From contig NC_092354.1 of the NCBI RefSeq assembly GCF_963676685.1, positions 49,352,001-49,416,000 of the forward strand: DNA of 64,000 nt, in the 5' to 3' direction. A program made the position numbers and the translations under genes. The notes under the pieces are model-generated. The model saw only the letters and a list, made by a program, of their open reading frames with translations, had not been told where the DNA came from and did no database searches. Each line of letters starts with the position of its first letter. The first letter of the stretch is position 1. Shown here one piece after another: positions 2,988 to 63,061 of the stretch. The DNA comes from Mytilus edulis. Its lineage: Eukaryota.

Positions 2988-3117
2988 NNNNNNNNNNNNN
3001 NNNNNNNNNNNNNNNNNNNNNNNNNNNNNNNNNNNNNNNNNNNNNNNNNNNNNNNNNNNNNNNNNNNNNNNNNNNNNNNNNNNNNNNNNNNNNNNNNNNN
3101 NNNNNNNNNNNNNNNNN
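2988..3117. other. Assembly gap (130 N)
   Basis: Run of n characters. Confidence 0.99.
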
Positions 3118-5010: not shown

Positions 5011-6159
5011 AAAGTAATTTTTTGATCATCAGTGCAAGCAGTAGCGTTTGTTTGATTTTAAAACACGAATCGATCTATACTATTTAAAATTACAATACGC
5101 AAGCTGAAACCGTACCAAGTGATTATTATTTTTGCACACGACATCTAGGCTGTCGTCCCACCTCTAACAGTAGACGGTTCTCTTGGTGGGGATATTGTGC
5201 ATTCAACCGTGGATATGATAAAATATCTGTAATAAACAAAATTGTAATGTTTTGATTGTGTAATGTCTTAATTTTTAAGGTTACGCGGGTTCGGTATTAA
5301 GGGGGACAATTGGTATGAACACATTTCGATATACGTGTAAATTATATTAAAAGAAGCTTTCAAACGCAGTTATTTACGAGGATATTTAAAGATACAAATA
5401 AAAAAATCTTTTTATGTTTTTGAATTAGGCTTTTAATTTCCATTCCTAATTATATATCATTGTAGAAAAAATTTATTTTATACATTTAAAGTACATGTAA
5501 TTCTTTATGCTTGCTAGTCCATGAATAAAATTGCATAAATCACAAAAACACACTCGGGAATATGTACACATGACAGTTGTAAGTAACAGCTATATAACTA
5601 TACAAGAGAAGATGTGGTATGATTGCGAATGAGACAACTGTCCACAAGAGACCAAAATTACTAGTACACAGACATTAACAACTATATGTCACCGTACGGC
5701 CGTCAACAATGAGCAAAGCACATACCGCATAGTCAGCTATAAAATGCATTTCAAAGATACTATAATTAGAACAAAAGGTTAACGTACTTACAAAATATGT
5801 CATCTTAAAGAATGTGATTTCACAAATAAATTATTTTCAAATTCGCAGTCCAAGTCAACCTAAAATCGGTTACACACATTTTTAATGTTATAAATCCATT
5901 CCAACAATATCATTTTAAACACACACTAGCTTGCCTTTTCATTAATTTGAATAATACAAATTCAGCTAAATTTTGTTTATTCCCATCAACAGAGAAATCT
6001 CACACTCATCCCAGACGTTAATAATACTCATGCACTTCAATTTTGATAAACAATTTATTGATACGGATGACAACGCTTTAACATACGGTTACATTAGGGT
6101 TAAAAAAAATGTGAACTTGTTTTTAATTGAATCCAAAGACAGATTAAACGGTAGCTTTA

Positions 6160-18870: not shown

Positions 18871-19243
18871 ATATCAATGAATGTGTATATGTATATAAAA
18901 AAAATATTTAGTTTGCTTTTAATTTACTGATTACAAAATCAATATTAATACCAATGTAACAATATTGATATAATTACAGTTTTCAATTGTTTACCTTTTA
19001 GAATAAGTTTATTTAAGTATCCATAAGTTTACAAGGATCGTTTCTTAATTTCTTGGCACGGTAAACAATATTTCCCTAAAAAAGGGGAAGTACTATCCCG
19101 TTTGAAATCAGTTTTTTACGGGTACAACCAAGCTTCAAAACCAAAGCTTTTTATCTATGGAGGAATTTTGTAAAGTTTTTCAGTAATTTGTGGTTCTTAA
19201 AGAAAAATGTGGACTAATCATGTATGTTTTTGTTTTGTTATAG

Positions 19244-19507
19244 ATTCGTCCTGTCCATCTTCTCAAATTGGACAAGTATGTGCCATTGTGGGATCGTCAC
19301 CAATACTGAAATTTATACACTATGAGCAGATATTCTATAGTAGATATTACATCCACAGCAGGCTTAGAAAGACACGAAGAGTCAGCAACTTCACAAGGCA
19401 TACAGACATTCAAATTTACAATGTAACCGGTGAAGACGCAGGCTTATACATATTACATGAAATTGATTCGAATAATTCATATTCTCGAATAGCGCTGCAT
19501 GTAGCCA
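19244..19507 (+). CDS. Gene A Ig-like domain 2 exon
   Basis: ttatag|...|gtgagt, 264 nt, open: DSSCPSSQIGQVCAIVGSSPILKF...IQIYNVTGEDAGLYIL...IALHVA (V/I-set DxGxY motif). Confidence 0.85.
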
Positions 19508-23200: not shown

Positions 23201-23385
23201 AATCATATTTTAAAAGTACTGTTTTGATTGGACATACGGAAAATATATACACAGAAGGTTCTGCTTTGTTTGGTAGGAGAATATATACGCAGAAGGTCCT
23301 GTTATATAATATTTATTGTTATGATAACATAAAGACAGTCAGTAGAAGTATATTTTTGAAATTACTGTTGGTTTTCTTTTTACAG

Positions 23386-23646
23386 AATTATGGTTCATTA
23401 ATCAAACCAATCTTAAAACAATAGTAGGACAAGAAGGCGAAACAATAAGAATTATTTGTTCCACTGACACTGGACAGTATATTACTGCGTTAACTTTAGA
23501 ATCAAATGGATCAACCAAAGCCATTGGAGATAATCAAACTGTGAGCTATTCGTTTATACCAGACAGAACAGACCATCTCACAACATTTCAATGTGTTGAC
23601 AGTAAACACTCTTCGATAATGATTGAAGTGGAATTAACTATAAGGT
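23386..23646 (+). CDS. Gene A Ig-like domain 3 exon (C2-like, Cys pair)
   Basis: ttacag|...|gtaagt, 261 nt, open: KLWFINQTNLKTIVGQEGETIRIICSTD...DRTDHLTTFQCVDSKHSSIMIEVELTIR. Missed by the ORF track. Confidence 0.9.
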
Positions 23647-24066
23647 GTAAGTCTGTAGCATCATGAGCAAATAGTACTTTTTGTAATCTGACAACAACGT
23701 TAAGATATATTTTTCATGGTAAATTTATCACCAGTGCTTATGTAAACAAAAACAAAATTATCAGGATCGATTTTATCACCGTGTTGTCACGTTATTAGAC
23801 TGAACATTGTTTTTTAAATTTATTTTCCATTCGTGTTTATAAAAGATCCCAATTAGAAATATTGTAATAAGGTATTTCCATTCATATGTGCCATTAAATT
23901 AACAATGGTGAGAACATAAAAGATATTTTGATGTACAAGAATTATAACAGCAACTGATCATATGTAAATTGTATTTGTTTGGTCTCAGTGAAATAAAAAA
24001 TTAATTTTCGAGTCGATTTCAACACTTCTTTGAGATATTCCTACAATTACTAACAATGCATTGTAG

Positions 24067-25971: not shown

Positions 25972-26307
25972 GTCCACCTGCATTTGCATCAGAAAACAGA
26001 TATATAAAAACTGGAACAATAGGATTCTCAATAACAATGTCGTTTTATACCTACAGTTACCCTGATATCGAAGAAATAGTTATCAAAAATACAGGACAGA
26101 AGTCCACCAAAAGTAACAAATTCAAACATAACAACTTATCTAATTCTACGTTGCTTTACTCAGAGTTCAACAACATCGTCGGAATTGAAGGTTACGAGAT
26201 TGTAATCGAAAGTGAAGTGTTGGACATTGATGATTTCCAGATCTATCGTATAACAATAAAGAATCGCCTAGGTGAAAGCAGTTATCATTTTGCAATTATA
26301 GATACTG
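25972..26307 (+). CDS. Gene A Ig-like domain 5 exon (membrane-proximal, no Cys)
   Basis: 336 nt, open: GPPAFASENR...ITMSFYTYSYPDIEEI...DDFQIYRITIKNRLGESSYHFAIIDT|gtaagc. The acceptor is a weak ttttctgag. Confidence 0.8.
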
Positions 26308-26779
26308 GTAAGCATGGTGAATACACTTCAATTAAGACACCAAAAACATCAATAAAATTGTATAAAAGAAACAGTCAACACATTACGGTATAGAAAACAA
26401 AAGACTGGACAAGACATAGCCACAAGCTTGATAGTAGTATCATATGCGTTAGACGTGTAAGTGTTCTGTCAACACGATTTGCTTGCTCGATATGACACTA
26501 ATGGCAACCCTTATTATATATTATTTTATAAACATGCTACCCCGGTTTTCTTTTGTACAAAACAAGCCTTTTTTTTTTACTATTGTCAATGATATAAGGA
26601 TTTTCTCGTTACTTTTCATGTTTTCTATTAATTTTACATCTATGTCATGATACTTTTTTTTACTATTCAATTTCTTACGTGATCAAAAGTAGACGACAAA
26701 ACGTCTGACAGCTCTTTATATAGGGACTATATAAACTATATATTTTTAACAGATGTGTTTATTAATATATCTATTTCAG

Positions 26780-27208
26780 AGATTCAATCATTGAGCAAAA
26801 ACAACAGGATGTATTTCGTGGTTCTTTGCAGCATAGCTGTGGTTCTTTTTGTTTATGTGGTTATTACTCACGTCTGGTTGTGTGCAAAACATGTTAAGAC
26901 TCGGTTTCAAAGATCTCACAATGTAGTTGACGACCACAATTATCATACGTATGATGAAATTGGCACGATTTCGTATCGCGCTGTCAGCAACTTACGTTCG
27001 TCAGATACCATCGCCAATCACGGCTTGAACTTGACGGAACAGCATGAAGTTGGTATCTCAATTGCTGCAAGTTTGCAATCAACTGATGATAATTTAGCTG
27101 AATTGAATGATGACTTTCGCGAGGATGACTTAGAACAGCATGATTTTACTGAGATCCAAGGAGAAAACGTGTCTCTTTCATTGGGAACTACGAACATTTC
27201 TAATACAG
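26780..27208 (+). CDS. Gene A last exon, 5' part: TM helix and proximal tail (YDEI, ITIM ISYRAV)
   Basis: tttcag| EIQSLSKNNR-MYFVVLCSIAVVLFVYVVITHVWLC-AKHVK...HTYDEIGTISYRAV...; runs into the LTR and stops at TAA 27211-27213. Confidence 0.88.
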
Positions 27209-27551
27209 TGTAACAAAGTTACTTGGATCATCAATATATTCGTAGCAAATTCTTAATCTGTCCAGTGATTGATATACTTACATCGAGGATATGTCAGTCG
27301 AACAATGGAACAATGATTTATCTACTTACCTCGTGATCTTACAAATGACCAATACATTGTGTTATGAAACAATAGAACGCAACACATGTTGCTGATGTCA
27401 GCCGAATGTTTAGATATATAAACTGTGTTGTTTTCTAACCAGGGGGCGACTTGGAGCGACTTCTTCGATGCCACTATACGCACGGTGTCTCTCACATACA
27501 TTGTAAAATAATGTAATAAAGTTTGTCAAATTATCTAGTGTTAGTGTTACA
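27209..27551 (+). repeat. 5' LTR (343 bp)
   Basis: TGTAAC...GTTACA; TATATAAA at 27415-27422 and AATAAA at 27515-27520; first ~62 nt identical to the 3' LTR. Confidence 0.9.
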
Positions 27552-27562
27552 CTAGTAATTTT

Positions 27563-27585
27563 TGGTGCCGCGTGACCAGGATTCG
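27563..27585 (+). promoter_or_regulatory. Primer-binding site complementary to the tRNA-His 3' end (2-nt insertion)
   Basis: TGGTGCCG(CG)TGACCAGGATTCG versus the invertebrate tRNA-His complement TGGTGCCGTGACCAGGATTCG. Confidence 0.8.
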
Positions 27586-27610
27586 TCAACGACGTCTGCT
27601 ACCAATTTTG

Positions 27611-27619
27611 AAGGTATGT
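27611..27619 (+). promoter_or_regulatory. Candidate splice donor for env subgenomic mRNA
   Basis: AAG|GTATGT between the PBS and the gag ATG. Confidence 0.65.
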
Positions 27620-27648
27620 CTTTATTTTGAATTGTTTTGGTGAAAAAA

Positions 27649-28602
27649 ATGGCTGACCAGCAAGTAGGGGAAATTTTTCAGGCTTTGGCCAATACCTTGG
27701 GGCAATTGTCAGATTCTATTGGGAATCAGGGACATAACCAGCAGGCTCTCTCGGCTCAAGTCGAGCTTTTATCAAATACCGTGGGCACGCAAAGTGTTTC
27801 ACAAGTTATTCCGTCTTTTGGGGGGAATCCAAAAGAGTTTCAGGAATGGGTTAAGGCCGTCGAAAAATATGCTGTTTTAACGCATGCGATAGGGAACGCG
27901 GATCGCGTTAAATTAATTGCGTACCAGTCCAGTAAAGGGGCTGTGAGCGATTATCTTAAGAGGTACTTGACCGCGAATGATCAAGCAACCTGGGAAGAAT
28001 GCAAAACTCAATTAACGGCAAGATTTTCAGAGGTAACCGACCCGCAACATGCTTTCTCTCTGCTGCGTCAGGTTAAACAAAAGACGAACGAAACGGTCCA
28101 AGTATTCGCCGAACGCCTGATGGCTTTAGTTACAGAAGCGTATATAGGACAGCCACGGGACGTCGAACCCGTGGAGAGACAAATTATAGGTTTTTTCGTA
28201 GATGGTTTGTTGCTTGACAAACTTAAAATGAAGATTATGCGGGATAATCCGGCTACGCTTGAGGCCGCAATTACTCTAGCAATGACGGAGCAAAATTTGA
28301 TCACGCGTTTTGGGCTAAGAACGAAAGGGTCCAACGTTCGCGTAAGTAGGGATGAGCAAGTAGGCGCGAGTCATCAACCTATGGAGGTTGATCACTATCG
28401 TTCGACCAGACGATGCCACAAATGCGGAAAATTAGGTCATTTTGCAAAAGATTGTAGGAGTAATACTCCACGTAAATACCCGGAAACGCACCGAGTTAAT
28501 TTAGTTCAACAAAGAAATCTAGCAGAGGTTGTTTGCTACTACTGTCGTGGGAAGGGACACTTCCAAAGATATTGTCCGCAACGAAATCGACAGGGAAACT
28601 AA
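27649..28602 (+). CDS. gag: Gag with two CCHC zinc knuckles
   Basis: Open ORF from ATG 27649; capsid-like region (QKTNETVQVFAERL); CHKCGKLGHFAKDC and CYYCRGKGHFQRYC; ends at slippery G GGA AAC TAA (28593-28602). Confidence 0.93.
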   Translation: MADQQVGEIFQALANTLGQLSDSIGNQGHNQQALSAQVELLSNTVGTQSVSQVIPSFGGNPKEFQEWVKAVEKYAVLTHAIGNADRVKLIAYQSSKGAVSDYLKRYLTANDQATWEECKTQLTARFSEVTDPQHAFSLLRQVKQKTNETVQVFAERLMALVTEAYIGQPRDVEPVERQIIGFFVDGLLLDKLKMKIMRDNPATLEAAITLAMTEQNLITRFGLRTKGSNVRVSRDEQVGASHQPMEVDHYRSTRRCHKCGKLGHFAKDCRSNTPRKYPETHRVNLVQQRNLAEVVCYYCRGKGHFQRYCPQRNRQGN

Positions 28603-28618
28603 TGCGCTCTCTTCATAA

Positions 28619-31600
28619 CGAAGCCAAAGTAAAAGTAAAGTCTCTCTTCAAGCGGTAAACGGTGAGTCTTTATTAATAGATGGTAGCGCAAATTTCACAT
28701 TTGATATTGGGGGATCAAAAATAAATCATGTTTTTCATGTAGTGTCGGATATGAATAGAAATATAATTTTGGAAAGAGATTTTCTACAACAGCAAGGTGT
28801 ACGCGTCTATTTTGACTTAAACTGTATAAGAATTGGAAAAGTTTACGTGCCTCTTGAAAATGAAATCCATATTGCCTCGATAGTAAGAGTTGCTAAGAGG
28901 ACACTTTTAAAACCTCAAAGTGTAAACATTTGTATAGGAAAGATCAAGAAACATTCATGTTTTTTAAACTCTGAATTGTTACAAGTATCTGCCGTGGATT
29001 CGGGCTATATAAATTCGGAAGCAGGATTATTAGTTAGTAACTCGGTTACTAAAATACATAAAGTGAACAAGATTCCTGTTTTAATGTTAAACAACACCAA
29101 TAAAACTATTTGTTTAAATAGGGGATGTGTAGTAGGTAAAGTTAGTGACCTCAATACCAAGGACGTTCCATGTGTAACAAAAGATGGTCAAACAATTGAG
29201 TCAATAGATATATCAAATCAGAAAATTGATGTTCCTCAAGATTATCTAGAAGTAGTACGATCTCTTGTAAACGCAAACGAGGACATATTCGCTGATAGTG
29301 ACAAAGATTTAGGGGGAACTGACACCGTTAAAATGTTTATTGATACGGGAAACCATCACCCTATCAAATTAAAACCATATAGAACTCCTATACATAAAAG
29401 GCCAATAGTTGGTAAGGCAATTGATGAAATGATGGAAGCAAATATTATAAGAAGGTCTAGGTCCCCATGGTCATTTCCAATTGTTGTTGTTGATAAAAAG
29501 GATGGATCTAAAAGATTTTGTATTGATTTTCGTTTATTGAACCGTATAACGAAAGTTATCTCTTATCCTTTACCATTGATAGACGATATTTTGGCACAAT
29601 TAGATAAAGCAAGGTATTTTACAAGCTTAGACTTAAAAAGTGGGTACTGGCAAATAAACATGAAAGAGAGTGACAAGGAAAAGACTGCATTCACTTGTCA
29701 TAGGGGTCTTTTTGAATTCAATGTTATGCCTTTTGGACTTGTTAACGCGCTAGTATTTTTAGCCAACTCATATCTATTGCAATGCAAGGATTAGACAAAT
29801 TTTCGGTCGCCTATTTGGATGATATTTTAATCTTTTCTGAAACATTTGAAGACCATTTACGTCACATTCAGACAGTGTTTGATAGGTTGAGACAACATAA
29901 TTTGAAGTTAAAATTAAAAAAATGTAGTTTTATTAAGGAAGAAACTAAGTATTTGGGTTTTGTTATAACGCGTGAAGGTGTTAGACCAGATCAAGATAAA
30001 GTAAAAGCTATTCAAACGATTCCGATACCCAAAACTGTGAAAGAAGTTAGAGGTTTTATTGGTATGTGTAGTTACTACAGAAGATTCATTCTGAATTTTT
30101 CTAAAATAGCGGAACCTCTTGTCAATTTAACGAGAAAATATGCGAAATATCCTTGGTTAGAGGGTTGTGACGTAGGCTTTAATTACTTGAAGGATAGTTT
30201 AACAGTAGTACCTTTACTTGCATATCAAAACCCTAATTTACCTTATGTCTTGTACACTGATGCAAGTGATACATGTGTTGGTGCATGCTTGACACAGATA
30301 ACTGAAGAACAAAATGCAGTTGAAAAACCTATTTACTTTCTATCGCATAAATTAAGCGACACTCAAACTCGGTGGTCAACTGTTGAAAAAGAAGCGTTTG
30401 CGATTCATTATGCACTACAGAAGTTAGATTTTTATTTGCACGGAGCAAACTTTATCATCAAAACGGATCATAAACCTTTGAAATATTTACTAGATTCACC
30501 GATGAAAAACAAAAAACTACAAATGTGGTCTTTAGGGATATCTGGATACAATTGTAAGATTGAGTACATATCAGGAGAAACAAACTATTGTGCAGATCTT
30601 TTGTCAAGAACTCCACAAAGTGATGAAGATAAGGGAATAAGTAATGAAACTGTCGATCCCGATATAAATGATAATACCTATGAAATTAATACAATTAATT
30701 CAAATAAATTAGAAACACGAAATTTCGCAACTTGCACTGTAGAACACCCAGATTTACCTAGTAAGGAGACTTTTCAAAATGAAGATTTAGATATGAAATT
30801 AGAACAAGCGAAAGATTTGAACATTGTTAAGGTTAAGAAGGAAATTGAAACAGGTACAGCGAGTAGCTCTACACAAAGTCAATTCATGATTATTGAAGAT
30901 GTTGTTTATTTTCTGTCACAGCCTGACATTGATCCTCTAATCCGATTATACGTCCCGGAACATTTAAGGGAAGATATTGTCGTTCAATATCATGATAATA
31001 ATGGTCATTTAGGTATTGATAAAACGTATGACAGTATAAAGCTACGGTATTATTGGCCAGGGTTATACAAGAAAATATATGCCTATGTAACCATGTGTGT
31101 TACGTGTCAAACTAGAAATTTAAGAAAAGTAAATCCTCCTGTTCAAGAAGTATTTATACCACCTTGTCCGTTTGCTAAAATAGCATTAGATTTATCGGGA
31201 CCCTATCCAGAAACATTGTCTGGGAACAAATACATAATTGGGTTCATTGATCTTTATTCGGGATTCCCTGAAGCTTTTGCCGTAAAAGATAAAAAAGCCG
31301 AAACAATTGCTCATTTGCTTATCGAGGAAATTATTCCAAGACATTCAGTCTCATTACAAATTTTAAGTAATAACGGATCTGAAAATGTAAATAAAATTAT
31401 GAAGGAAACATGCGAAACGCTGAATATAAATCATATTACTACTTCGTTTTACCATCCGCAAAGTAACGGACGAATTGAAAGGTTCCATCGTACTCTCCGT
31501 GATGTTTTATCTAAACTAATGAAAGACGACACATCAACGTGGGATTTGTTTTTAAATCAAGCTTTGGCCGCTATTAGGTTTAATATAAGTGAGTCTTCTA

Positions 31601-32385
31601 AATTTTCACCATTCTATTTGTTATATACTCGAGATGCCGTTCTACCCGTTGATAACATAATGAAACCCCATAGGAAATATATGGGCGAAGATTTGCATCA
31701 AATAATGCTAAATCAACAACATAAAGCATTCGTGCTGGTACACAGGTCCATGAAACAAGCTCAAAAACGACAGTTAAAATATAAAAATAAAAACTGTGTA
31801 GATGAAGGTTTTAAGATAGGGGATCTTGTTTATTGTAAAAATCATTTGAAGAAAAATAAATTAGATAATCGATGGACACCGTATTTCCGTATTGTTGATC
31901 AAACCTCGCCAGTGTCATTCATGATAAAGGATCAGTTGACTGGAGTGGTACGAAAAGCACATGCTGAACATCTGCGAATAGCTAAAATCGATGAATGGGA
32001 TATTCCTAAAAATAAGGGTAAACAGTTAAGAAAAGCTGCGTATGTTGCATCTCCGGATGTAAGTAGTTCAGACATGGAGGTTGACACCGACTCGGATTCT
32101 GATTTTAATAAACCTCTTGCTACTCTTGCAAAGAAATATCGAAAAGAACGAACGAATAGTTCTGATGAAGAATCAATTTCTCTTATGGAGTTAAGTAAAC
32201 TCTTAAAAGAAAAAGAAAGAGAGGAAAATTATGACAGTGATTCAGAGGAATCAATGTCTGTAAACGAGGTTATAGAGACAAATCTGAAAACGAAAAAAGT
32301 TAGGCGAACATTGCCGTCAAACATATGTAAAGAAAAAAATGTTAAAGTAAAAGAATTATTGGCGTCAATTTCTAACATGTTGTAA
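28619..32385 (+). pseudogene. pol: Pol (truncated protease, RT, RNase H, integrase), inactivated
   Basis: RT motifs SPW, LDLKSGYWQ, MPFGL, YLDD; RNase H YTDAS, EKEA, TDHKPL; integrase HHCC and D..(N)..E. The protease D[ST]G half is missing, there is a 1-nt deletion at ~29750 (NAP becomes NAL), and SDNG is SNNG. Confidence 0.93.
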
Positions 32386-32450
32386 GGCTTCACAATATGT
32401 TGATATTGATTGCACGGGATTATAAATTGTATATAAATAATATGAGAATA

Positions 32451-32463
32451 TTTTGTTTTGTAG
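32451..32463 (+). promoter_or_regulatory. Candidate env splice acceptor
   Basis: TTTTGTTTTGTAG| ending 18 nt before the env ATG at 32482. Confidence 0.7.
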
Positions 32464-32481
32464 ATATAAAAAGTAACAAAG

Positions 32482-34545
32482 ATGAATTGTCAACTATTGA
32501 TCTTTTTGTGCTTAACCAGTGTTGTTTATAGTCAGCATAACGTGATCTTTGATAAAATAGGGGAAATAACAACGACGCGTTCAAAATGGCTCGTCACGTT
32601 TGTTATCGATCTGGAAATATATCAGACATTTTTAAGGGATCTTTCGTGTGATATTCAATCGGCAATATCTCTGGCACAAATTGTACGTGTACATGCACCT
32701 AAACGTTGGGTCAAGTCATTAGCCAACCTCAAGAAGGAGTTGGTTAAGTTAAATGTTACACATAATATAATTACCGACATGTTTCAAGAATGTCGATCGT
32801 TATTGCGAAAGTCGAAACGATCAATCATTCCGGTAGTAGGAAAAATTTTGGGTTTTCTCTTCGGAACCGTATCCGAACAAGATTTGGATTCTATACGCAG
32901 TAATGTGAATATGTTGGCTAAGAACCAACAAAAGATGGTACATGTTTTAAAAGAAAGTTTAACTATTCTAAATATATCTCGTTCGGATATCGCGGAAAAT
33001 AGAAATTCAATAAATGACTTGTTTATTGCGTTTAATGAATTATATGTCGATTTTAAAAATTTCACTAGAGCTGTGAAAGAAAGAATTTTTCAAATTGAAA
33101 GACATGTAATGATAAATTCGATAACTGAAGGGTTATCGCGTCTTGTAACGCACGCTCAATTTCATATTTCTCACCTACAAATGCAGCTGAACATGCTGTC
33201 GTTAGGTCATTTGTCACCAAGCGTGATTTCTCCGAAAAATTTAAGAAAACTATTAATTGGGATTAATTCAAAATTGCCACCAGGCATAATGTTACCGAGT
33301 GATCCAATTACTAAATTATGGGATTACTATCAAATATTAAGCTGTCACACCGTATTGGATAATAATCGTATCTTCGTTGTTTTGTCGGTACCATGGATAG
33401 ATTACAATAGTAATTTTGAGATTTTTAAACCATTTAATTTACCTATTCCGATAAACTTAAATCTGCAAGTTGACAGTACAAAGTCTATGCTAGCATACTC
33501 TAATCTTGAAGCTAAGGCGTTAGGTGTAAATGCTAAAAGAACTGAATATATTCTTCTAAATGATGATGAACTAAATAAATGTATTCATCCGATAAGAAAT
33601 TTTTGTGACATAAGAAGTCCAGTCTATCGAATAAATTTAAGTAAGTTTTGTATAGTTGCTCTGTTTAGGAATGATGTAAAATTGATTGAAAATAATTGTC
33701 ATAACACCATTAAAATAAATGCAATACTTCCAATGGCGGAATACTTATCGTCGGGAACGTGGATAATGGTAACAACTAAGCCGTTGCGTATGTCCATTAA
33801 CTGTGGACCTAACATTAGGGCCGTAGAAAAAATAATGAAACCGCCCATCGATTTATTAACTCTCGAAGTCGGTTGCTCAGCTAATAACGATCAGCTTACT
33901 TTACTACCCTACTATCAACTAGAATCTAAACTAAATATTGATGAACCATTCGCCAGGTTTATGAAAAATTATAATACTACATATGTTAATATGTGGAAAC
34001 ATTTATACGATATTATGCCAGAAAATCAATCGCGGCCGCTGTTAAAAGGGTTAAAAGGAATTGAAACTCTTTCAATGGATTCCTTGGTTCAAAAACTTAA
34101 GGGGGATAATAAAATGCCGGACTTGCAAAAGAGAGAGTCTGCATTTCCAATATGGGTCTATATTGTCCTTACTGTGGCCATATTAATTATTGCCTACGGG
34201 GTTGGGAAAAATTTAAAACACTGGTTAGCCAAAATTTTCATTAGGGCAAGACAGAATTTGACAAAGCCTGATGAAGAAGTGGTGGGTTTCACAGATGAAA
34301 CTCGGAGCGTGGTCACCGCAAATGAAGATGAACAATCTAAGCCACTATCATTTATAAAGGGCTTGAGACAGAAGTCAAAACGGAAAAGATACACTTCGTT
34401 GTCAAATCGAACACCTCAGCATACATATATATGTAACAAGGAACCTGAAGAACTTTCATTGCAAAATCGGTTGCTGAGGATAAGCCGAATGCCAACACTC
34501 GGAAATATTCCCGAGTCGATTCACGAAGTGGAATCAGAGCACTAA
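32482..34545 (+). CDS. env: Envelope glycoprotein, class I fusion protein of baculovirus-F/errantivirus-Env type (687 aa)
   Basis: Signal peptide MNCQLLIFLCLTSVVYS; furin site RKSKR (32806-32820) followed by fusion-peptide-like SIIPVVGKILGFLFGTVSEQDL; heptad region; Cys-rich region; TM FPIWVYIVLTVAILIIAYGVG; tail with YTSL. Confidence 0.9.
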   Translation: MNCQLLIFLCLTSVVYSQHNVIFDKIGEITTTRSKWLVTFVIDLEIYQTFLRDLSCDIQSAISLAQIVRVHAPKRWVKSLANLKKELVKLNVTHNIITDMFQECRSLLRKSKRSIIPVVGKILGFLFGTVSEQDLDSIRSNVNMLAKNQQKMVHVLKESLTILNISRSDIAENRNSINDLFIAFNELYVDFKNFTRAVKERIFQIERHVMINSITEGLSRLVTHAQFHISHLQMQLNMLSLGHLSPSVISPKNLRKLLIGINSKLPPGIMLPSDPITKLWDYYQILSCHTVLDNNRIFVVLSVPWIDYNSNFEIFKPFNLPIPINLNLQVDSTKSMLAYSNLEAKALGVNAKRTEYILLNDDELNKCIHPIRNFCDIRSPVYRINLSKFCIVALFRNDVKLIENNCHNTIKINAILPMAEYLSSGTWIMVTTKPLRMSINCGPNIRAVEKIMKPPIDLLTLEVGCSANNDQLTLLPYYQLESKLNIDEPFARFMKNYNTTYVNMWKHLYDIMPENQSRPLLKGLKGIETLSMDSLVQKLKGDNKMPDLQKRESAFPIWVYIVLTVAILIIAYGVGKNLKHWLAKIFIRARQNLTKPDEEVVGFTDETRSVVTANEDEQSKPLSFIKGLRQKSKRKRYTSLSNRTPQHTYICNKEPEELSLQNRLLRISRMPTLGNIPESIHEVESEH

Positions 34546-34861
34546 TTTGTACAGAAATACTATTATATAACATGAATTTTGTTGTGGTAATAATTATATA
34601 TTATTTATTATTACTGTGGGAACTATATAGCCATAGGAAAGTGACGAAACTGTATACCAGGAATAAATATGTTTAAGTATATATAACATAAACTTTAATA
34701 TGAAGGAACCAGACAACTTCATGATGGACTTACCTTGGAACATTCCGTATAAATATGTTATTTCCATATATATATATATCTTACAAGGACACTGTTATCA
34801 ACATCGAACTTTAAAGAAAATTTCTATGTTTAGAAACTTTCTTTTCTTAGCATTGGAGGAA

Positions 34862-34956
34862 TGTAACAAAGTTACTTGGATCATCAATATATTCGTAGCA
34901 AATTCTTAATCTGTCCAGTGATTAATATATATTTATATCGACTTATAAGTGTTACA
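34862..34956 (+). repeat. 3' LTR, internally deleted (95 bp)
   Basis: Preceded by purine run GGAGGAA; matches the start of the 5' LTR, then jumps to AGTGTTACA; followed by TSD ACAG. Confidence 0.88.
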
Positions 34957-34960
34957 ACAG

Positions 34961-35670
34961 ATGTATTGCGTTTACCGCCTCCTATCATATTGAGCATGGG
35001 AAATGTCAGGGGTTACCAACAAACCAATGAAAATACAGATTCAGAAACCCAAAGTGAACAACAGAGTCAAGCAAGCAATGACTCTAATAGTGAATCATCA
35101 CAGAATATGGTAGGCAATAATGACGATGAATATGAAAACCCTTATCAGACTGTATTAAACGATCACAGAAGTATTCATCAATATGTTCAGATCACAAGAG
35201 AAAGAAACAATAGCATCTCATCTGGTGCCAATCTGTATTTGACCGATGCTTATACAACTGAGTTGAATGCAAACTTTCTCGAAGAAGTTCATATGACAGA
35301 ACAGCAAGTGCAGCGTAGGACTATGTCCTTGAATGAGTTGGATTTCTCTTGTCCAGATTCGACGCTGACATCGTCCACTGTCATTCCAAGTATGCAAAAC
35401 ATCGTAAATAGAAATCAGAATAATAAAAGTTCAACTAGTGATGACTCTGATAGTGATTCATCAACAAATGATATTGTAGGCAATATTGCAGATGGATATG
35501 AACACCCTTATCAAACGGTATTACAAAATCACACAGAAAGTCACCCATACATCGAGATTATCAGAGAAAGACATAGTAGCATATCATCTACTGGATCTAC
35601 TGAAAGTGAAGCGCAAATTGTTGGAACAGACTCGACAAAGAAGGAAGACTACATCAATCTTCAATTCTAA
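34961..35670 (+). CDS. Gene A last exon, 3' part: cytoplasmic tail with duplicated tyrosine modules
   Basis: Joins in frame to 27208 (...ISNT-DVLRLPPP...); YENPYQTV-x9-YVQI, YEHPYQTV-x9-YIEI and C-terminal EDYINLQF*. Confidence 0.88.
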
Positions 35671-52000: not shown

Positions 52001-55000
52001 TGTTTTTTTTTTTGTTATCCATTAATCATGTGTTTCCTTTTCTAATACGTTCTCCTATTTATTTGTATTGTAGTCCTGTAATATTATGTTGTCATTTCAA
52101 TGTTATATTTAGCAATATCCATTAAAGTGCGAGGTTTGGCATGCAACAAAACCAGGTTCAATCCACCATTTTTTCCTTTAAAAATGTCCTGTACCAAGTC
52201 AGGAATATGGCCATTGTTATATTATTGTTCGTTTCTATGTGTGTTACATTTTAACGTTGCGTCGTTTCTTTTCTCTTATTTTTGAGTGTAATTTCACATT
52301 GCGATAAGACGTGTCACGGTACTTGTCTATCCCAAATTCATGTATTTGGTTTTGATGTTATATTTGTTATTCTCGTGGGATTTTGTCTGATGCTTGGACC
52401 GTTTCTGTGTTTCTAACATTTTAGTGTTGTGTCGTTGTTCTCCTCTTGTGTTTGATGCGTTTTCCTCGGTTTTGGTTTGTTGCCCCGATTTTGTTTTTGC
52501 CCATGGATTTATGGACTACTGTTGCCTGTGTTATTCAGCAGTGGGTTTTTATCCTTTGAATTGTTTTATATGTTATCATGTTCTTGTATTGCTTCTATAT
52601 TTATAAATGTACAAGGCACAGTGTGAATTTTACTCATTGTTAAAGGTTGTTTAATGTTCTTTTGTTGTTGTTTCATTTCATTTTGTCTCTGGCAATTGTT
52701 GTCGTATATGAAATCATACCACATCATCCTATTTTAAAGCCAGTTAAAGCCGGTTAACAAACAATCTAGAAACATAGAAAAGGCATTTCAAATGTCTGTA
52801 ATGTTTCAATTCAAATTGTAGTGCACATTTGTCAGACTTTTACATCATTAAACTGACTTTGTAGGATACATGAACTTGTCTAATTTTGATATGATATAAC
52901 ACAATTAAAACAAAATACATGTATAAGAAAATAGACAAACTGCTAATAATGAGTTATTGCTGTTGTTTGTTAGTATACTGGATACCTCAGTTGACTTTGT
53001 GCATCACAACGGATGTTGGTAATTCTAGTGTTAATTTCTCAGTAAAATATAATAAAATTTACAAAATGAACCTATACATTGTATTAGACAGTACTTATAT
53101 GCACACAATGTATACTGGTAATGATGTATATATAAATGACATACTAATTTATGTGGGTATATTATGGAGTCTCCTGCTCATACATTCTTCATTATAGATC
53201 CTTCATATATAGAACGTGTTTGCAATTTCGAACGACTCCTACCTTGAAAATAGCGGGGTAACCATTAATTCTTATCATATTTTTTTATAAAAAGCATAGT
53301 TAAATCTTCATTTTGGCAAAGTTAAAAAAATCTATATATATTTTTCTACCCCTGAACTACCTTAATACATACAGATCCTACTGCTGAAAAGCTACATCAT
53401 AATAACTACATTGTAGTCAACTATAAGATATTTATTTTGTTTGCATATATGACATGCATGATACTATATTCTTATTTTGGTTATAGATATGTCCTGTCCA
53501 TCTCGTGCAACTAAAGAAGTGTGTGCTGAAGAGGGATCATCGGCACTTCTTACTTTTATAATCGAGGACTTCATTTATTATAATCCAATCGAAGTTGCGC
53601 TCCGACCATTAAGCAATTATACACTGCATGTAGACTTTTACATTTACAATATTACCCATGAAGACGGAGGGTCTTATAGATGTCCCTATATTTACGATTC
53701 TATCTGGCTGCACGTATCAAGTAAGTAGTTTCTAAAGTATATGTCATAAAAATACATGTAGTATCGATTATACAAATATACAGTATTGTTTAACACTAGT
53801 CTTCAGTCGCGTTTGACATGGATAAAATATCTGAGTACACTTAATGGATCACGAAGCATTGATAACGGTACAAAGATAAATGATTTTTTTTTCTCTATTA
53901 AACAGGGGTAAAACTGACGATGTGAGAAAAATAGAAAAGTCACTGTTCTTATAAAAAAAAACTTTCGCAAAGCAATTGTACGAATAGTTTGTTAAACTGA
54001 ATTTAAAAATTATAATCTTTGCAGTCATGAGTATACAACATATACAGATCTCTATTTATAGAAGTATCAAACTAAGTGCATAATCAATTACAATAGGTAT
54101 ATCTATCATTAGCAGATTAGATTTTGATCACACTGGACTGCTACTGTCACTTGGTTGTTAAATTTAGAAATATAGTATTTTGCCTGTTTTAACAATTATA
54201 ACTTAGCGTCTTCACTGAATCTGAACCAACAGTGTAAAGATCAATTGTTCAGTGCTCATATGGACGGATATATCTTGACAACATGTTTTCCACTGTATAA
54301 GTAATATTTCAGTAGAAACAGCATTATATTTTCTACATATACATGTATGTAATCAGTGTTATTCAGGACAGTTGTCAATTTGTAGAGTGATACAATTTCA
54401 GACAGGATATTGTGTTGACTCGTCGTAGTCAAATAATATATCACCAAACTTGTATTTTTTCATCGACACAAAAATTGCTTTAAATTTTAGAATGCTTTTG
54501 TTCTCTCAAAACCAGTAGAATAGAGCACATCTGTAATATCTAATAGTGTTTTTATACATGTACATGTAACCTGGTTGTACTTAAATCAGGTGTAGTTTTT
54601 TTTCTTCAGATTGATCATTTTTCAACTGGAACACATATAATCCATACACATCACATTTATCAAAATCTTGTCTTAATCCAAATCCGATGTCTTCCCCAAC
54701 CAACAAGTGACGCCTAACTGTACTTCACGCTCCTTATGAGTGATTTTAAGCATGAGGATTTTTGGCTTAACACAATAGTCGTTGCCTTATTAATCTAATT
54801 AGGTACAAGAACTATCATACAAGTTTGAGAATAAGCATAGTTAATATATAATATATAAACAACATAAACATTCATGTAATAAGGAGGTGATAAACACAAC
54901 ATTATAATAACAAGAACATAAACATAGTGTAAGGTAAATAGTAGAAACAACTTAACATAGTAAGTACATTAGTGGAGTGACCAAGCCAACATTTTTTTAA

Positions 55001-61000: not shown

Positions 61001-63061
61001 CGGGGTAAATACTAAATGTTAATCCATGATTAGTTTATACAGCTTATGAAACAAAAATAATGTCAACATAAATGTAAAATAAAAACAGATGTGTGCAGTC
61101 CTAATCTGTACAGCAAGTTAACTTGATAACTAGTCCTTTGGACTGGTCAAAGTTAACCTGTTACCGGATTTTGGACTGCTATTACCAGTCCTAGGACCAA
61201 AATCTAGTTAACTTGAAAAGCGGACTTAGACCTACATTTTTGTAGGACTGTTTATATGCCTGCCAAAAAATTAACTTTGGCTTTGACAAATCTGATCGAA
61301 ACCAGACCTGTTCCCAAGTTAACTTATGACTGGTCTGCTCAACACTTAGTTAACTTGTAATAAAAACCGCTATATATCGATTAAAAAAAATAATATCTTG
61401 TTTCTTACTATAAATATCAAAAATAAAGTAGAATTAATACTTCCGTTATATAAACAGGATTAAATACAAATATTTAAACATACAGTACGCATAAAACGTT
61501 GCTTGTCACACAAATTTAGCTGTGATCTAAAAAAAACGATCTTGGTGACAACGATAACGGGCACTGAATATATATTCCAATACCTATCAAATTCAACCAT
61601 ATTTGCACATTATTGTGTTTATCTATGCAAGGCCGTATATTAGATGTTAGTTATAATTCCTTGATCTTTGTAGATACAATCAGCAATATTTTGATTTCAG
61701 GATAGAATTTAAAATAAAAAATAAAAGTATCATTAAAACGCATAAAGTCTGCACAAAATAAGAGTCCCAGCATGTCCTCCTTTTGTTCAATATATTGATA
61801 CGTAACAAAATTTCATTAGTTTTGATACCTTATGCTGACTTGTACAACACAATTATTTAACCGCTGCAACCAAAATTGACCATATGTGCACTTTATATGT
61901 AAACCTATATACCAGTATAGCAAATCAGCCATATTTTTATATCAGGATTCAATGTATAACACAATGGACAGCAATATTGAAATACAATAACAACAAATTT
62001 TTGTTTGCATAAATTTAGGGTAACAGCATGTCCTCCTTTCATTCAAAATATTGATATGTACAAATTTTCAGTAGTTTTGATACCTCATGCTGACAAAACT
62101 ATTTGACTGCATCGACCAAAACTGACCATATGTGCACTTTAATTTGTAATCTATATACCCGCATAGTACATCAGCCCTAATTTTTATGTCAGGAATAATA
62201 CAATAGACAGCAATATTGCAATAAAATAAAAACAAATTTTTGTTCACATAAATTTAGAGTGCCGGAATGTCTTCCTTTTATTCAAAATATTGATACCTAA
62301 ACAAAATTTAAGTAGTTTTAATACCTCACGCTGACTTGTACAACAAAATTATTTGACCGCATCAACAAAAACTGACAATATGTGCACTTTAATTTGTAAC
62401 CCTATATACCAGCATAGTAAATAAGACATTTGTTGTATGACAGGACTCAATGCATAATACAATAGACAGCAATTCTGCTATACAATAATAACAAATTTGT
62501 GTTTGCATACATTTAGGGTGCCTGAATGTCCTCCTTTTATTCAAAATATTGATATGTAAGTTTTGATACTGTCGACTTGTACAACAAAATTATTATTACG
62601 CAATAAACATCATGAACATAGGAAGAATATATGAGGACATAATAGCCAAATTGAGTACAACTACTTCTAATTGGATATTATACAATAATATATACATAGA
62701 AATTACTGCTATGTTTGATATCTTAGGACAACATAAAGACAGTAAATAGAATATGTAGAAGTATATTTAGGATATTCTATTGTTTTTTTTTTATTTACAG
62801 AACTATGGTTCATTAATCAAACCGATCTGAAAACAATAGTAGGACAAGAAGGTGAAACATTAGACATCATTTGTTCCTCTGACCCTGACCAGTACATAAC
62901 TGAGTTAAAGTTAGAATCAAATGGAACAGTTAAAGTAATTGGGGATAATCATACTGTGAGATTTTCGTTTATACCTGACAGAACAGACCATCTGACAAAA
63001 TTTCAATGTGTGGACAGTAACCACTCGTCGATCATGGTTGAAGTGGAATTAACTATAAAAC
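49061..63061 (+). CDS. Gene B: paralogous Ig-superfamily receptor, 5' portion (continues past the window)
   Basis: ATG|gtaagc 49061-49063, signal exon 50089-50128, D1 51200-51475, D2 53487-53720, D3 62801-63061. All are GT-AG, phase-compatible and stop-free. Confidence 0.82.
50089..50128 (+). CDS. Gene B signal-peptide exon (VLEKLCLMWFFLQ)
   Basis: cattttag|GTATTG...TTACAAG|gtaagg; phase 0 to 1, joins ATG exon to D1 in frame. Confidence 0.6.
50350..50720 (+). mobile_element. Highly decayed Penelope-like RT remnant
   Basis: IGNNSASLLADMF (cf. MGTNCAPLLADLF) and SDVPTPPSFGVYIFQVLRYSR (cf. 37894 ORF). Confidence 0.55.
51200..51475 (+). CDS. Gene B Ig-like domain 1 exon (no Cys)
   Basis: tttcag|...|gtatgt, 276 nt: DKSIFTDARSIYTVVGSTLNLTF...IQIKNVTTNNTGLYKI...LQLSIT. 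Confidence 0.85.
51820..52000 (+). repeat. Retrozyme-family fragment with dead hammerhead
   Basis: GCGTCA CTGGTGA...GGAC GAGG CGCG...TGGCGT at 51939-51982. Confidence 0.55.
53487..53720 (+). CDS. Gene B Ig-like domain 2 exon
   Basis: ttatag|...|gtaagt, 234 nt: DMSCPSRATKEVCAEEGSSALLTF...IYNITHEDGGSYRCPYIYDSIWLHVS. Confidence 0.85.
55005..58923 (-). mobile_element. Decayed TIR DNA transposon with transposase-like remnants (Academ-like, tentative)
   Basis: ~110-bp imperfect TIRs (AATGGACC..TACCTGCAGGCT...GGTCGTAGA at 55005-55125; reverse complement at 58800-58923). Minus-strand fragment LLQNIRAERNGLWLSHL...FFFTNRTSYARWTPAYTLDMMNL at 57212-57457. Confidence 0.6.
56177..56470 (+). repeat. Retrozyme-family copy nested in the TIR element; hammerhead with near-core substitutions
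   Basis: GGGTATCACCAGCCCAGTA...CACTTCGG head shared with the 350-bp unit; GCGTCA CTGACGA GTCT-tatgt-AGAC GAAC TGCGCG TC TGGCGT at 56396-56439. Confidence 0.7.
58970..60690 (+). repeat. Degenerate 30-bp minisatellite in the gene B intron before D3
   Basis: 30-bp period visible at 60091-60180 (gtaaggacag.../ttaaggacaa.../ttaaggacac...). Confidence 0.8.
60700..61030 (+). repeat. Degenerate retrozyme-family copy
   Basis: GTATCACCAGCCCAGCACTTC head; decayed hammerhead gggtca cttatga gtat..agac aaaa near 60964-61005. Confidence 0.55.
61590..62600 (+). repeat. Diverged tandem repeat, ~240-260-bp unit, ~4 copies
   Basis: ATGTCCTCCTTTT..TTCAAAATATTGATA recurs at ~61772, 62028, 62267 and 62527. Confidence 0.8.
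62801..63061 (+). CDS. Gene B Ig-like domain 3 exon
   Basis: ttacag|...|gtaagt, 261 nt: KLWFINQTDLKTIVGQEGETLDIICSSD...DRTDHLTKFQCVDSNHSSIMVEVELTIK; 69/87 identical to gene A D3. Confidence 0.92.

What the first reader, a model, noticed from the sequence alone, without database searches (positions are those of the whole stretch)
27209..34956. Envelope-encoding Ty3/Gypsy element (endogenous-retrovirus-like) in a probable bivalve genome
Seen: LTR-PBS(tRNA-His)-gag-pol-env-LTR with a 4-bp TSD. The third ORF is an intact 687-aa type I membrane protein with signal peptide, RKSKR furin site, a GKILGFLFGT fusion-peptide-like segment, Cys-rich ectodomain and TM. Established: that post-furin pattern is the signature of baculovirus F and insect errantivirus Env. 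Drosophila gypsy-type errantivirus Gag lacks CCHC knuckles, whereas this Gag has two, and the bivalve Steamer element has no env. Inference: a distinct, possibly infectious lineage of mollusc retroelements, which could provide a cell-to-cell or waterborne route for retroelement spread.
Basis: partly seen in the sequence, partly recalled or inferred. Interest (0 to 1): 0.88.

Follow-up and report, generated by a model that had tools for sequence, protein, structure and literature searches.

The report
Broken mussel errantivirus with intact envelope
This is a broken copy of a virus-like jumping gene that has landed inside a predicted mussel receptor gene and still carries an unbroken envelope gene, predicted to fuse membranes and likely made by splicing; such elements were already catalogued in bivalves in 2026.

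Summary
The element is real: LTR, tRNA-His primer site, two-knuckle gag, pol, a 687-aa third ORF, LTR, with an ACAG target duplication. ORF3 is an F-type envelope: its model matches baculovirus F proteins (E 4e-22) and RSV F, and 38 of 66 aligned proteins hit Baculo_F, though ORF3 itself does not. The kind is already published: Chary and Hayashi (eLife 2026) list 36 bivalve F-env Ty3/gypsy elements, five from Mytilus californianus and seven with His primer sites. This copy is defective: the protease active-site stretch is missing, RT has a frame break, an integrase catalytic residue is replaced, and the 3' LTR is 95 nt against 343. The cleavage site lacks the canonical P4 arginine. Three additions. 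(1) A GT donor at 27614 and an AG acceptor at 32463 are joined exactly in an LTR- and TSD-flanked env-only copy, so spliced env RNA was likely reverse-transcribed; microhomology is a rival. (2) The insertion splits the last exon of a host Ig-like membrane gene, and empty sites occur in other runs. (3) Sister families carry small unnamed ORFs before env. Nothing here shows infectivity or waterborne spread.

The parts
27205..27208 (+). Target-site duplication, left (ACAG)
   Evidence: empty-site contigs hold one copy
27209..27551 (+). 5' LTR, 343 nt
   Evidence: same ends as both LTRs of L011
27563..27585 (+). Primer-binding site for tRNA-His(GTG): 21 nt complementary, with a 2-nt bulge
27614..27615 (+). 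Predicted splice donor (GAAG|GTATGT) for the env RNA
   Evidence: joined to the acceptor in L011, L051 (two copies) and L052; donor-like GT after the primer site in sister families
27649..28602 (+). gag, 317 aa: capsid-like domain and two CCHC knuckles; open
28593..28599 (+). GGGAAAC heptamer before the gag stop, predicted -1 frameshift site
   Evidence: same heptamer at the gag end of L014 and L017, and found in L033; absent in L067
28619..29794 (+). pol, 5' piece: protease C-terminal part (active-site stretch missing in this copy) and RT N-terminal half
   Evidence: other copies and runs carry extra sequence at about 28627-28630
29746..32385 (+). pol, 3' piece in another frame: RT C-terminal half (YLDD), RNase H, integrase with a replaced catalytic residue, acidic tail
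32462..32463 (+). Predicted splice acceptor (pyrimidine run plus AG), 18 nt before the env ATG
32482..34545 (+). env, 687 aa, F-type class I fusion protein: hydrophobic N-terminus, dibasic site ending at residue 113, fusion-peptide-like segment, long helices, beta-rich domain, transmembrane helix about 553-571, tail
34855..34861 (+). Short purine run before the 3' LTR (PPT-like)
   Evidence: sequence; similar runs in relatives
34862..34956 (+). 3' LTR remnant, 95 nt (internal part lost)
34957..34960 (+). Target-site duplication, right (ACAG)
26776..27207 (+). Host exon, part left of the insertion: transmembrane segment and start of the tail; the frame stops 6 nt into the LTR
   Evidence: P0091 aa 328-471, 95%
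34957..35670 (+). Host exon, part right of the insertion: about 236 aa of Ser/Asn-rich tail with tyrosine motifs, cut off from the gene
   Evidence: P0091 aa 471-707, 97%
25974..26306 (+). Upstream host exon (extracellular part; further exons match at 19243-19506 and 23367-23657)
   Evidence: a contig in X15 runs from this exon's sequence into 26779

Best explanation
This is a replication-defective copy of a tRNA-His-primed Ty3/gypsy element with an unbroken F-type envelope gene, likely a member of the published mollusc 'ancient errantivirus' clade, inserted in the last coding exon of a mussel gene for a predicted Ig-like membrane receptor. In the active family, full-length RNA would give Gag, and Gag-Pol by a predicted -1 frameshift at GGGAAAC. 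A spliced RNA (donor 27614, acceptor 32463) likely gives Env and keeps the primer site and both ends, so it can be copied back into DNA; the env-only copy L011 is read as such a product. Env is predicted to be cut at the dibasic site and to fuse membranes like baculovirus F. By analogy with Drosophila errantiviruses it most likely moves particles from somatic cells into the germ line of the same animal (inferred, not tested). This copy could at most supply Gag or Env in trans.
For: Shown: architecture and TSD; His primer; Ty3/gypsy domains in RT-RH-IN order; pol breaks. F fold: model pLDDT 76, pTM 0.66; the top three BFVD hits are baculovirus F proteins, E 4e-22 to 5e-20; the top PDB hits are RSV F, E 5e-9; the profile hits PDB 'fusion protein' 9w4d at E 2e-13; 38 of 66 aligned proteins hit Baculo_F. 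Selection on env: dN/dS 0.22 over 681 codons against L011 and 0.28 over 586 against L018. Placement: pol tree of 15 rows, window in a 100/100 clade with the His-primed families L012/L043, L014, L017, L067/L068. L067/L068 env is 95% identical to M. californianus P0021, and their primer 12-mer is the exact complement of the PBS listed for Mcal_errantivirus_1, which the paper puts in RT clade G; all 10 His_GUG mollusc rows I saw are in that clade. Splice: L011 has two near-identical LTRs, a CATA duplication, the primer site, and exactly the GT..AG interval missing; the same junction is in three tandem pieces on another contig. Spliced env RNA is the rule in Drosophila errantiviruses (PMC12992720, passages). 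Host gene: relatives run straight through the site; the exact empty site is in contigs of X1, X5, X7 and X15, with a variant in X14.
Against: No RNA run showed the spliced junction: 0 of 4 laid, with only 38 and 23 reads in the two raw-read runs. Donor-side and acceptor-side ends share 7 of 8 letters, so template switching could give the same junction. ORF3 has no Pfam hit itself. TM-scores to F proteins are 0.43-0.47 or lower, and the Atlas recognition value (1670) is under its 2300 mark. dN/dS is higher against two partial copies, 0.76 (184 codons) and 0.44 (215 codons). P4 is K. No named reference sequence was in the tree, so the clade link is indirect. None of the 12 other loci of this family that I fetched has gag, pol and env open together.
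Confidence: 0.85

Rival explanations
1. The family is, or recently was, an infectious retrovirus-like agent that passes between mussels, or between species, through water or haemolymph.
For: Open F-type env under purifying selection; family pieces at 98-100% identity in runs under four organism labels; young related copies with 99.5-100% identical LTRs.
Against: Host flanks in the same runs are about as similar (1 difference in 605 nt in X1, 36 in 466 nt in X14), so shared ancestry or hybridisation is enough. A sister family's env is 94-95% identical to M. californianus. PMC13524379 finds host-element congruence and favours vertical descent (sections 5 and 11 and discussion passages). No particle or infection data.
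Confidence: 0.08
2. The env-only copies arose by recombination or reverse-transcriptase template switching at a short repeat, not by splicing; env would be translated some other way.
For: 7-of-8 microhomology between the two ends; no spliced read seen; other internally deleted copies with other breakpoints exist (L035, L061).
Against: The junction falls exactly at GT..AG in at least two separate lineages of copies (L011 at 92% and the C7 pieces at 78-81%). Donor-like sites follow the primer site in 7 of 7 sister loci where it was found (8 tried), and an AG after a pyrimidine- or AT-rich run lies within about 12 nt of all nine start codons inspected.
Confidence: 0.15
3. This env is being kept by the host (domesticated or used for receptor interference), which is why it is open while pol is broken.
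For: env is open for 687 aa while pol has three lesions.
Against: The insertion is not fixed (empty site in five laid runs) and disrupts a host gene. gag is also open, and three lesions spread over 7.7 kb can miss a 2-kb ORF by chance. There is almost no read cover on env in two RNA runs.
Confidence: 0.04

Closest known systems
Mollusc 'ancient errantiviruses' of Chary and Hayashi 2026 (PMC13524379), RT clade G / IN clade Z, e.g. Mcal_errantivirus_1, Ffra_errantivirus_1
   Same: gag-pol-env order, F-type env, mollusc host, His primer site in many members; a sister family in this genome is likely the counterpart of Mcal_errantivirus_1
   Different: A separate family: pol 61% identical to that sister family over RT-C/RH/IN, env 36% to P0021. 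This copy is defective. The paper's main text has no match for 'splic', 'accessory' or 'CCHC'.
Drosophila errantiviruses (gypsy, ZAM, Idefix; PMC12992720)
   Same: env-F with basic cleavage site, fusion peptide, cysteines and TM helix; spliced subgenomic env RNA; repeated env-less derivatives (passages)
   Different: Different primer (Ser or Lys there per PMC13524379 section 5; His here); separate pol group in that paper; the env ATG lies wholly in the second exon here; soma-to-germline infection is shown only in the fly.
Baculovirus F (Ld130-like) and pneumovirus/paramyxovirus F proteins
   Same: Predicted fold and cleavage-site/fusion-peptide layout
   Different: 10-14% identity, TM-score under 0.5, encoded by a retroelement; fusion untested.
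Steamer (Mya arenaria)
   Same: Bivalve Ty3/gypsy LTR element (recalled)
   Different: One search gave only a search listing.

Membership tests
Ty3/gypsy LTR retrotransposon (Metaviridae) | LTRs with TG..CA ends, target duplication, primer site, purine tract | tested here: met
   the 3' LTR is internally deleted
Ty3/gypsy LTR retrotransposon (Metaviridae) | pol order PR-RT-RH-IN with gypsy-type domains | tested here: met
   (RVT_1, RT_RNaseH, Integrase_H2C2, rve; Ty3_capsid in gag, below its cut-off); protease only partly present
Ty3/gypsy LTR retrotransposon (Metaviridae) | Classification against GyDB/Repbase profiles | not testable with these tools
   no such library or named reference sequences here
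Errantivirus in the broad sense of PMC13524379 | Third ORF after pol that is an F-type or gB-type envelope | tested here: met
Errantivirus in the broad sense of PMC13524379 | env is shared by related copies and families | tested here: met
   pol and env trees split the same two groups
Errantivirus in the broad sense of PMC13524379 | Intact RT and integrase in continuous ORFs (the paper's criterion for an intact element) | tested here: not met
   this lowers 'intact element', not 'copy of such a family'
Mollusc clade G/Z of PMC13524379 | pol groups with clade G members | tested here: inconclusive
   indirect only, through L067/L068 and P0021; the paper's sequences were not in the tree
Mollusc clade G/Z of PMC13524379 | RNase H followed by a 'mini' domain in the pol bridge | not tested
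   described in section 7; not modelled here
F-type class I fusogen | Canonical furin site R-X-K/R-R before the fusion peptide | tested here: inconclusive
   dibasic K-R with K at P4 and R at P5; canonical in 55 of 65 rows
F-type class I fusogen | Cleavage, trimer formation and membrane fusion | not testable with these tools
   needs bench work
Insect errantiviruses (Drosophila gypsy/ZAM/Idefix) | Ser/Lys/Leu primer site (predominant use) | tested here: not met
   His primer against PMC13524379 section 5
Insect errantiviruses (Drosophila gypsy/ZAM/Idefix) | env from a spliced subgenomic RNA | tested here: inconclusive
   genomic junction copies support it; not seen in RNA

The most novel reading that the evidence does not exclude
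The His-primed mussel errantiviruses are complex, retrovirus-like agents: one donor spliced to several acceptors makes Env and, in sister families, unnamed 150-180-aa accessory proteins; the spliced env RNA is itself packaged and integrated; and the particles are infectious beyond the gonad, passing between cells or between mussels in water.
Probability: 0.1. Interest if true: 0.75.

Novelty: new member of a known kind. Interest (0 to 1): 0.3.

Why it matters
The kind is in print, so this copy alone adds one more family. It does sharpen a point that the 2026 paper leaves open, namely how env is expressed and used outside insects: the exact junction 27613/32464 can be tested by RT-PCR and in situ work in mussel gonad. 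The env-only copy is genomic evidence that env RNA was made and copied in the germ line. The insertion is also a non-fixed truncating allele of a predicted Ig-like receptor with a tyrosine-motif tail, which bears on mussel gene variation. If particles pass between animals, that would be a route for retroelement spread among bivalves, but nothing here shows it.

Tried and rejected
Pfam on ORF3 alone: no family. phmmer of ORF3 against PDB: one chance hit, E 0.95. One-off capture of ORF3: rejected. Spliced junction in RNA: not seen in X22, X23, X15 or X16; cover was very low and X15/X16 are only guessed to be RNA, so this is no evidence of absence. It was also not among the joints listed for the four DNA runs, where 5 joints were not shown. 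Filled insertion junction in other runs: no listed piece bridges it, but the tables are cut. Cross-species transfer from run identities: cannot be judged, because labels are coded and host flanks are about as similar. Extra DNA after gag in L031 and L032: no protease motif in three frames, unexplained. A strict junction pattern found 1 place in the genome, L011's; the C7 pieces differ from it. The env tree by IQ-TREE did not finish and was redone by FastTree. The VIA-align search never ran. Small ORFs of sister families: no convincing Pfam hit for 8 proteins, Atlas best score 0.83. Paper searches: searches gave no paper describing this family or LTR-flanked spliced env copies in molluscs; the library lacks most subscription journals, and Repbase could not be searched. 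PMC12440569 (Troyka; passages) is unrelated, as those elements have no envelope. One search did not identify PDB 9w4d. Earlier findings of this scan: none. Figures and the GitHub sequences of PMC13524379 were not seen and may already hold this family or its small ORFs.
Full report
Observation. The element spans 27209-34956 between two ACAG copies. The 5' LTR is 343 nt. The 3' LTR is 95 nt and keeps only the first 68 nt (67 identical) and the last 13. The primer site is complementary to 21 nt of a genomic tRNA-His(GTG) end with a 2-nt bulge; ARAGORN called that gene in 1 of 2 loci scanned. Gag (317 aa) has two CCHC knuckles and ends just after GGGAAAC, a heptamer also at the gag end of L014 and L017 but not L067; a -1 frameshift is inferred from established retroelement biology. 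The host is a Mytilus-like mussel: the closest named protein to ORF3 is 98% identical over 536 aa.

This copy is defective. Its match to three related pol proteins begins about 30 residues after their protease motif, while the same-family copies L033 and L034 match across it. pol is split into two frames near 29,750-29,790, and the second catalytic acidic residue of the integrase is replaced. Public runs also carry extra sequence at about 28627-28630. None of the 12 other loci of this family that I fetched (L011, L018, L031-L036, L051-L053, L061) has gag, pol and env open together; the searches scored only 100 and 40 candidates, so this is no census.

ORF3. It has no Pfam hit at E 0.1. I aligned it with 65 of the 90 homologues, leaving out near-duplicates, fragments and fused gene models. 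Of the 66 rows, 38 hit Baculo_F at E 0.01, and the profile hits PDB 'fusion protein' entries 9w4d and 9w4c at E 2e-13 and 2e-11. The model (pLDDT 76.2, pTM 0.66) matches baculovirus F proteins first among viral models (E 4e-22 to 5e-20, TM 0.43-0.47) and RSV F first among solved structures (E 5e-9, TM about 0.28). The Atlas points to Baculo_F clusters at 0.96, with a low recognition value. The basic site ends at residue 113 and has K at P4; 55 of 65 scorable rows are canonical and 61 end in K/R-R. dN/dS for env is 0.22 and 0.28 against the two long copies, and 0.76 and 0.44 against two partial ones. Fusion activity is predicted, not shown.

Family and placement. The env query gave 81 matches among 100 scored candidates in the genome. 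Among 60 fetched stretches, several families have gag-pol-env, some with LTR pairs 99.5-100% identical. A pol tree of 15 rows splits them into a His-primed group with Env of about 670-690 aa, which holds the window at 100/100, and a group with Env of about 800-870 aa. A FastTree env tree of 17 rows gives the same split. Broken pol copies were left out of the trees.

What is known. PMC13524379 (Chary and Hayashi, eLife 2026): I read the abstract, sections 5 (part 1), 6 (part 1), 7, 8, 11 and 14, passages, and rows of supplementary files 1 and 5. It lists 46 mollusc elements. I saw 45 rows, all ENV_F; 36 are bivalve, 5 of them Mytilus californianus. His_GUG primers stand in 7 of 36 bivalve and 3 of 9 gastropod rows seen, and all 10 lie in RT clade G. 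Mcal_errantivirus_1 is in clade G; its listed PBS is the exact complement of the L067/L068 primer 12-mer, and M. californianus protein P0021, from a contig of the same length as in the table, is 95% identical to their env. The window family is therefore likely a further member of that clade, about 61% identical in pol to L067/L068. The paper states that transmission by env is unresolved outside Drosophila and favours vertical descent.

How env is made. A donor (GAAG|GTATGT) lies at 27614 between primer site and gag, and a pyrimidine run with AG ends at 32463, 18 nt before the env ATG. L011 has two LTRs that differ by one 3-nt gap, a CATA duplication, the primer site, and env joined at exactly these two sites; its env has one stop. 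Three tandem, 3'-truncated pieces on another contig show the same junction at 78-81% identity to the window env, so there were at least two events. Sister families have a donor-like site after the primer site (7 of 7 found, 8 tried) and an AG shortly before nine inspected start codons. In Drosophila errantiviruses env comes from a spliced RNA (PMC12992720, passages). Against this reading: the two ends share 7 of 8 letters, so template switching could mimic splicing, and no junction was seen in four RNA or guessed-RNA runs with thin cover. I put splicing at about 0.85.

Insertion site. The element splits one host exon. P0091 (M. edulis, 707 aa) matches 26776-27207 to residue 471 and 34957-35667 from residue 471. 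Relatives are annotated as Ig-like proteins (a weak Ig_3 hit in 1 of 4 scanned) and have 6-9 YxxI/L/V motifs in the last 330 aa. The window's frame stops 6 nt into the LTR, which removes about 236 aa of tail. The exact empty site is in contigs of X1, X5, X7 and X15, with a variant in X14: 5 of 8 runs laid. The X1 contig has 1 difference in 605 nt on the left and 44 in 837 nt on the right, so an allele is likely but a paralogue is not excluded.

Verdict. A new, defective member of a published kind. The envelope call is sound; novelty as a lineage and infectivity are not supported. The testable additions are the splice junction, the env-only copies, the truncated host allele and the small ORFs of sister families. 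Interest 0.3.

Noticed in passing
L012:4796-5332 and 5399-5917, L014 (5756-6229 on its minus strand), L017:5868-6356: Sister His-primed families carry one or two small ORFs (158-179 aa) between pol and env, each behind an acceptor-like AG, mostly homologous to each other and conserved (dN/dS 0.09, L017 against L055). No Pfam family; 21 hits among 1.84 billion representatives, and the five named ones looked up are Mytilus. The window's family lacks them. Possible accessory proteins.
   Followed up: partly
L016, L054, L056, L057, before env: A second, unrelated small-ORF family (173-196 aa) before env, dN/dS 0.21-0.33.
   Followed up: partly
L012, L013 against L043-L050, L069, L070: One family with pol 97-99% identical: 2 of 12 informative loci carry env and small ORFs, 10 keep only env remnants at about 78% identity; L042 was uninformative. 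This looks like the env-loss and amplification pattern described in Drosophila.
   Followed up: partly
L019:8766-9329 (same ORF in L020): GDSL/SGNH hydrolase ORF after env in the long-Env group (Lipase_GDSL_2, E 3e-11).
   Followed up: no
L067, L068: Young copies (LTR pair 99.65% in L067) whose env ORF starts at about residue 200 of the window env, without the cleavage site and fusion peptide.
   Followed up: no
L035, L061: Short elements with this family's LTR and primer site but an unrelated internal stretch of about 1.1 kb and only the 3' end of env; non-autonomous partners.
   Followed up: partly
L031, L032, after gag: About 850 extra bases after the gag stop with many stops and no protease motif; unexplained.
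   Followed up: partly
fold search of window 32482-34545: An uncharacterised 801-aa protein of abalone herpesvirus (A0A145VUZ2) ranks 10th, E 3e-16: a mollusc virus protein with an F-like fold.
   Followed up: no
window 53465-53752 and 62770-63060: Further exons similar to the host Ig-like gene (39% and 70%), suggesting a tandem paralogue cluster.
   Followed up: no
G000:C6:40136095-40257779 and C96: 197 matches to the tRNA-His 3' motif, most listed ones in a tandem array with a period of about 820 nt; ARAGORN called one gene in L073.
   Followed up: no
window 2988-3117: A run of 130 N, outside the finding.
   Followed up: no
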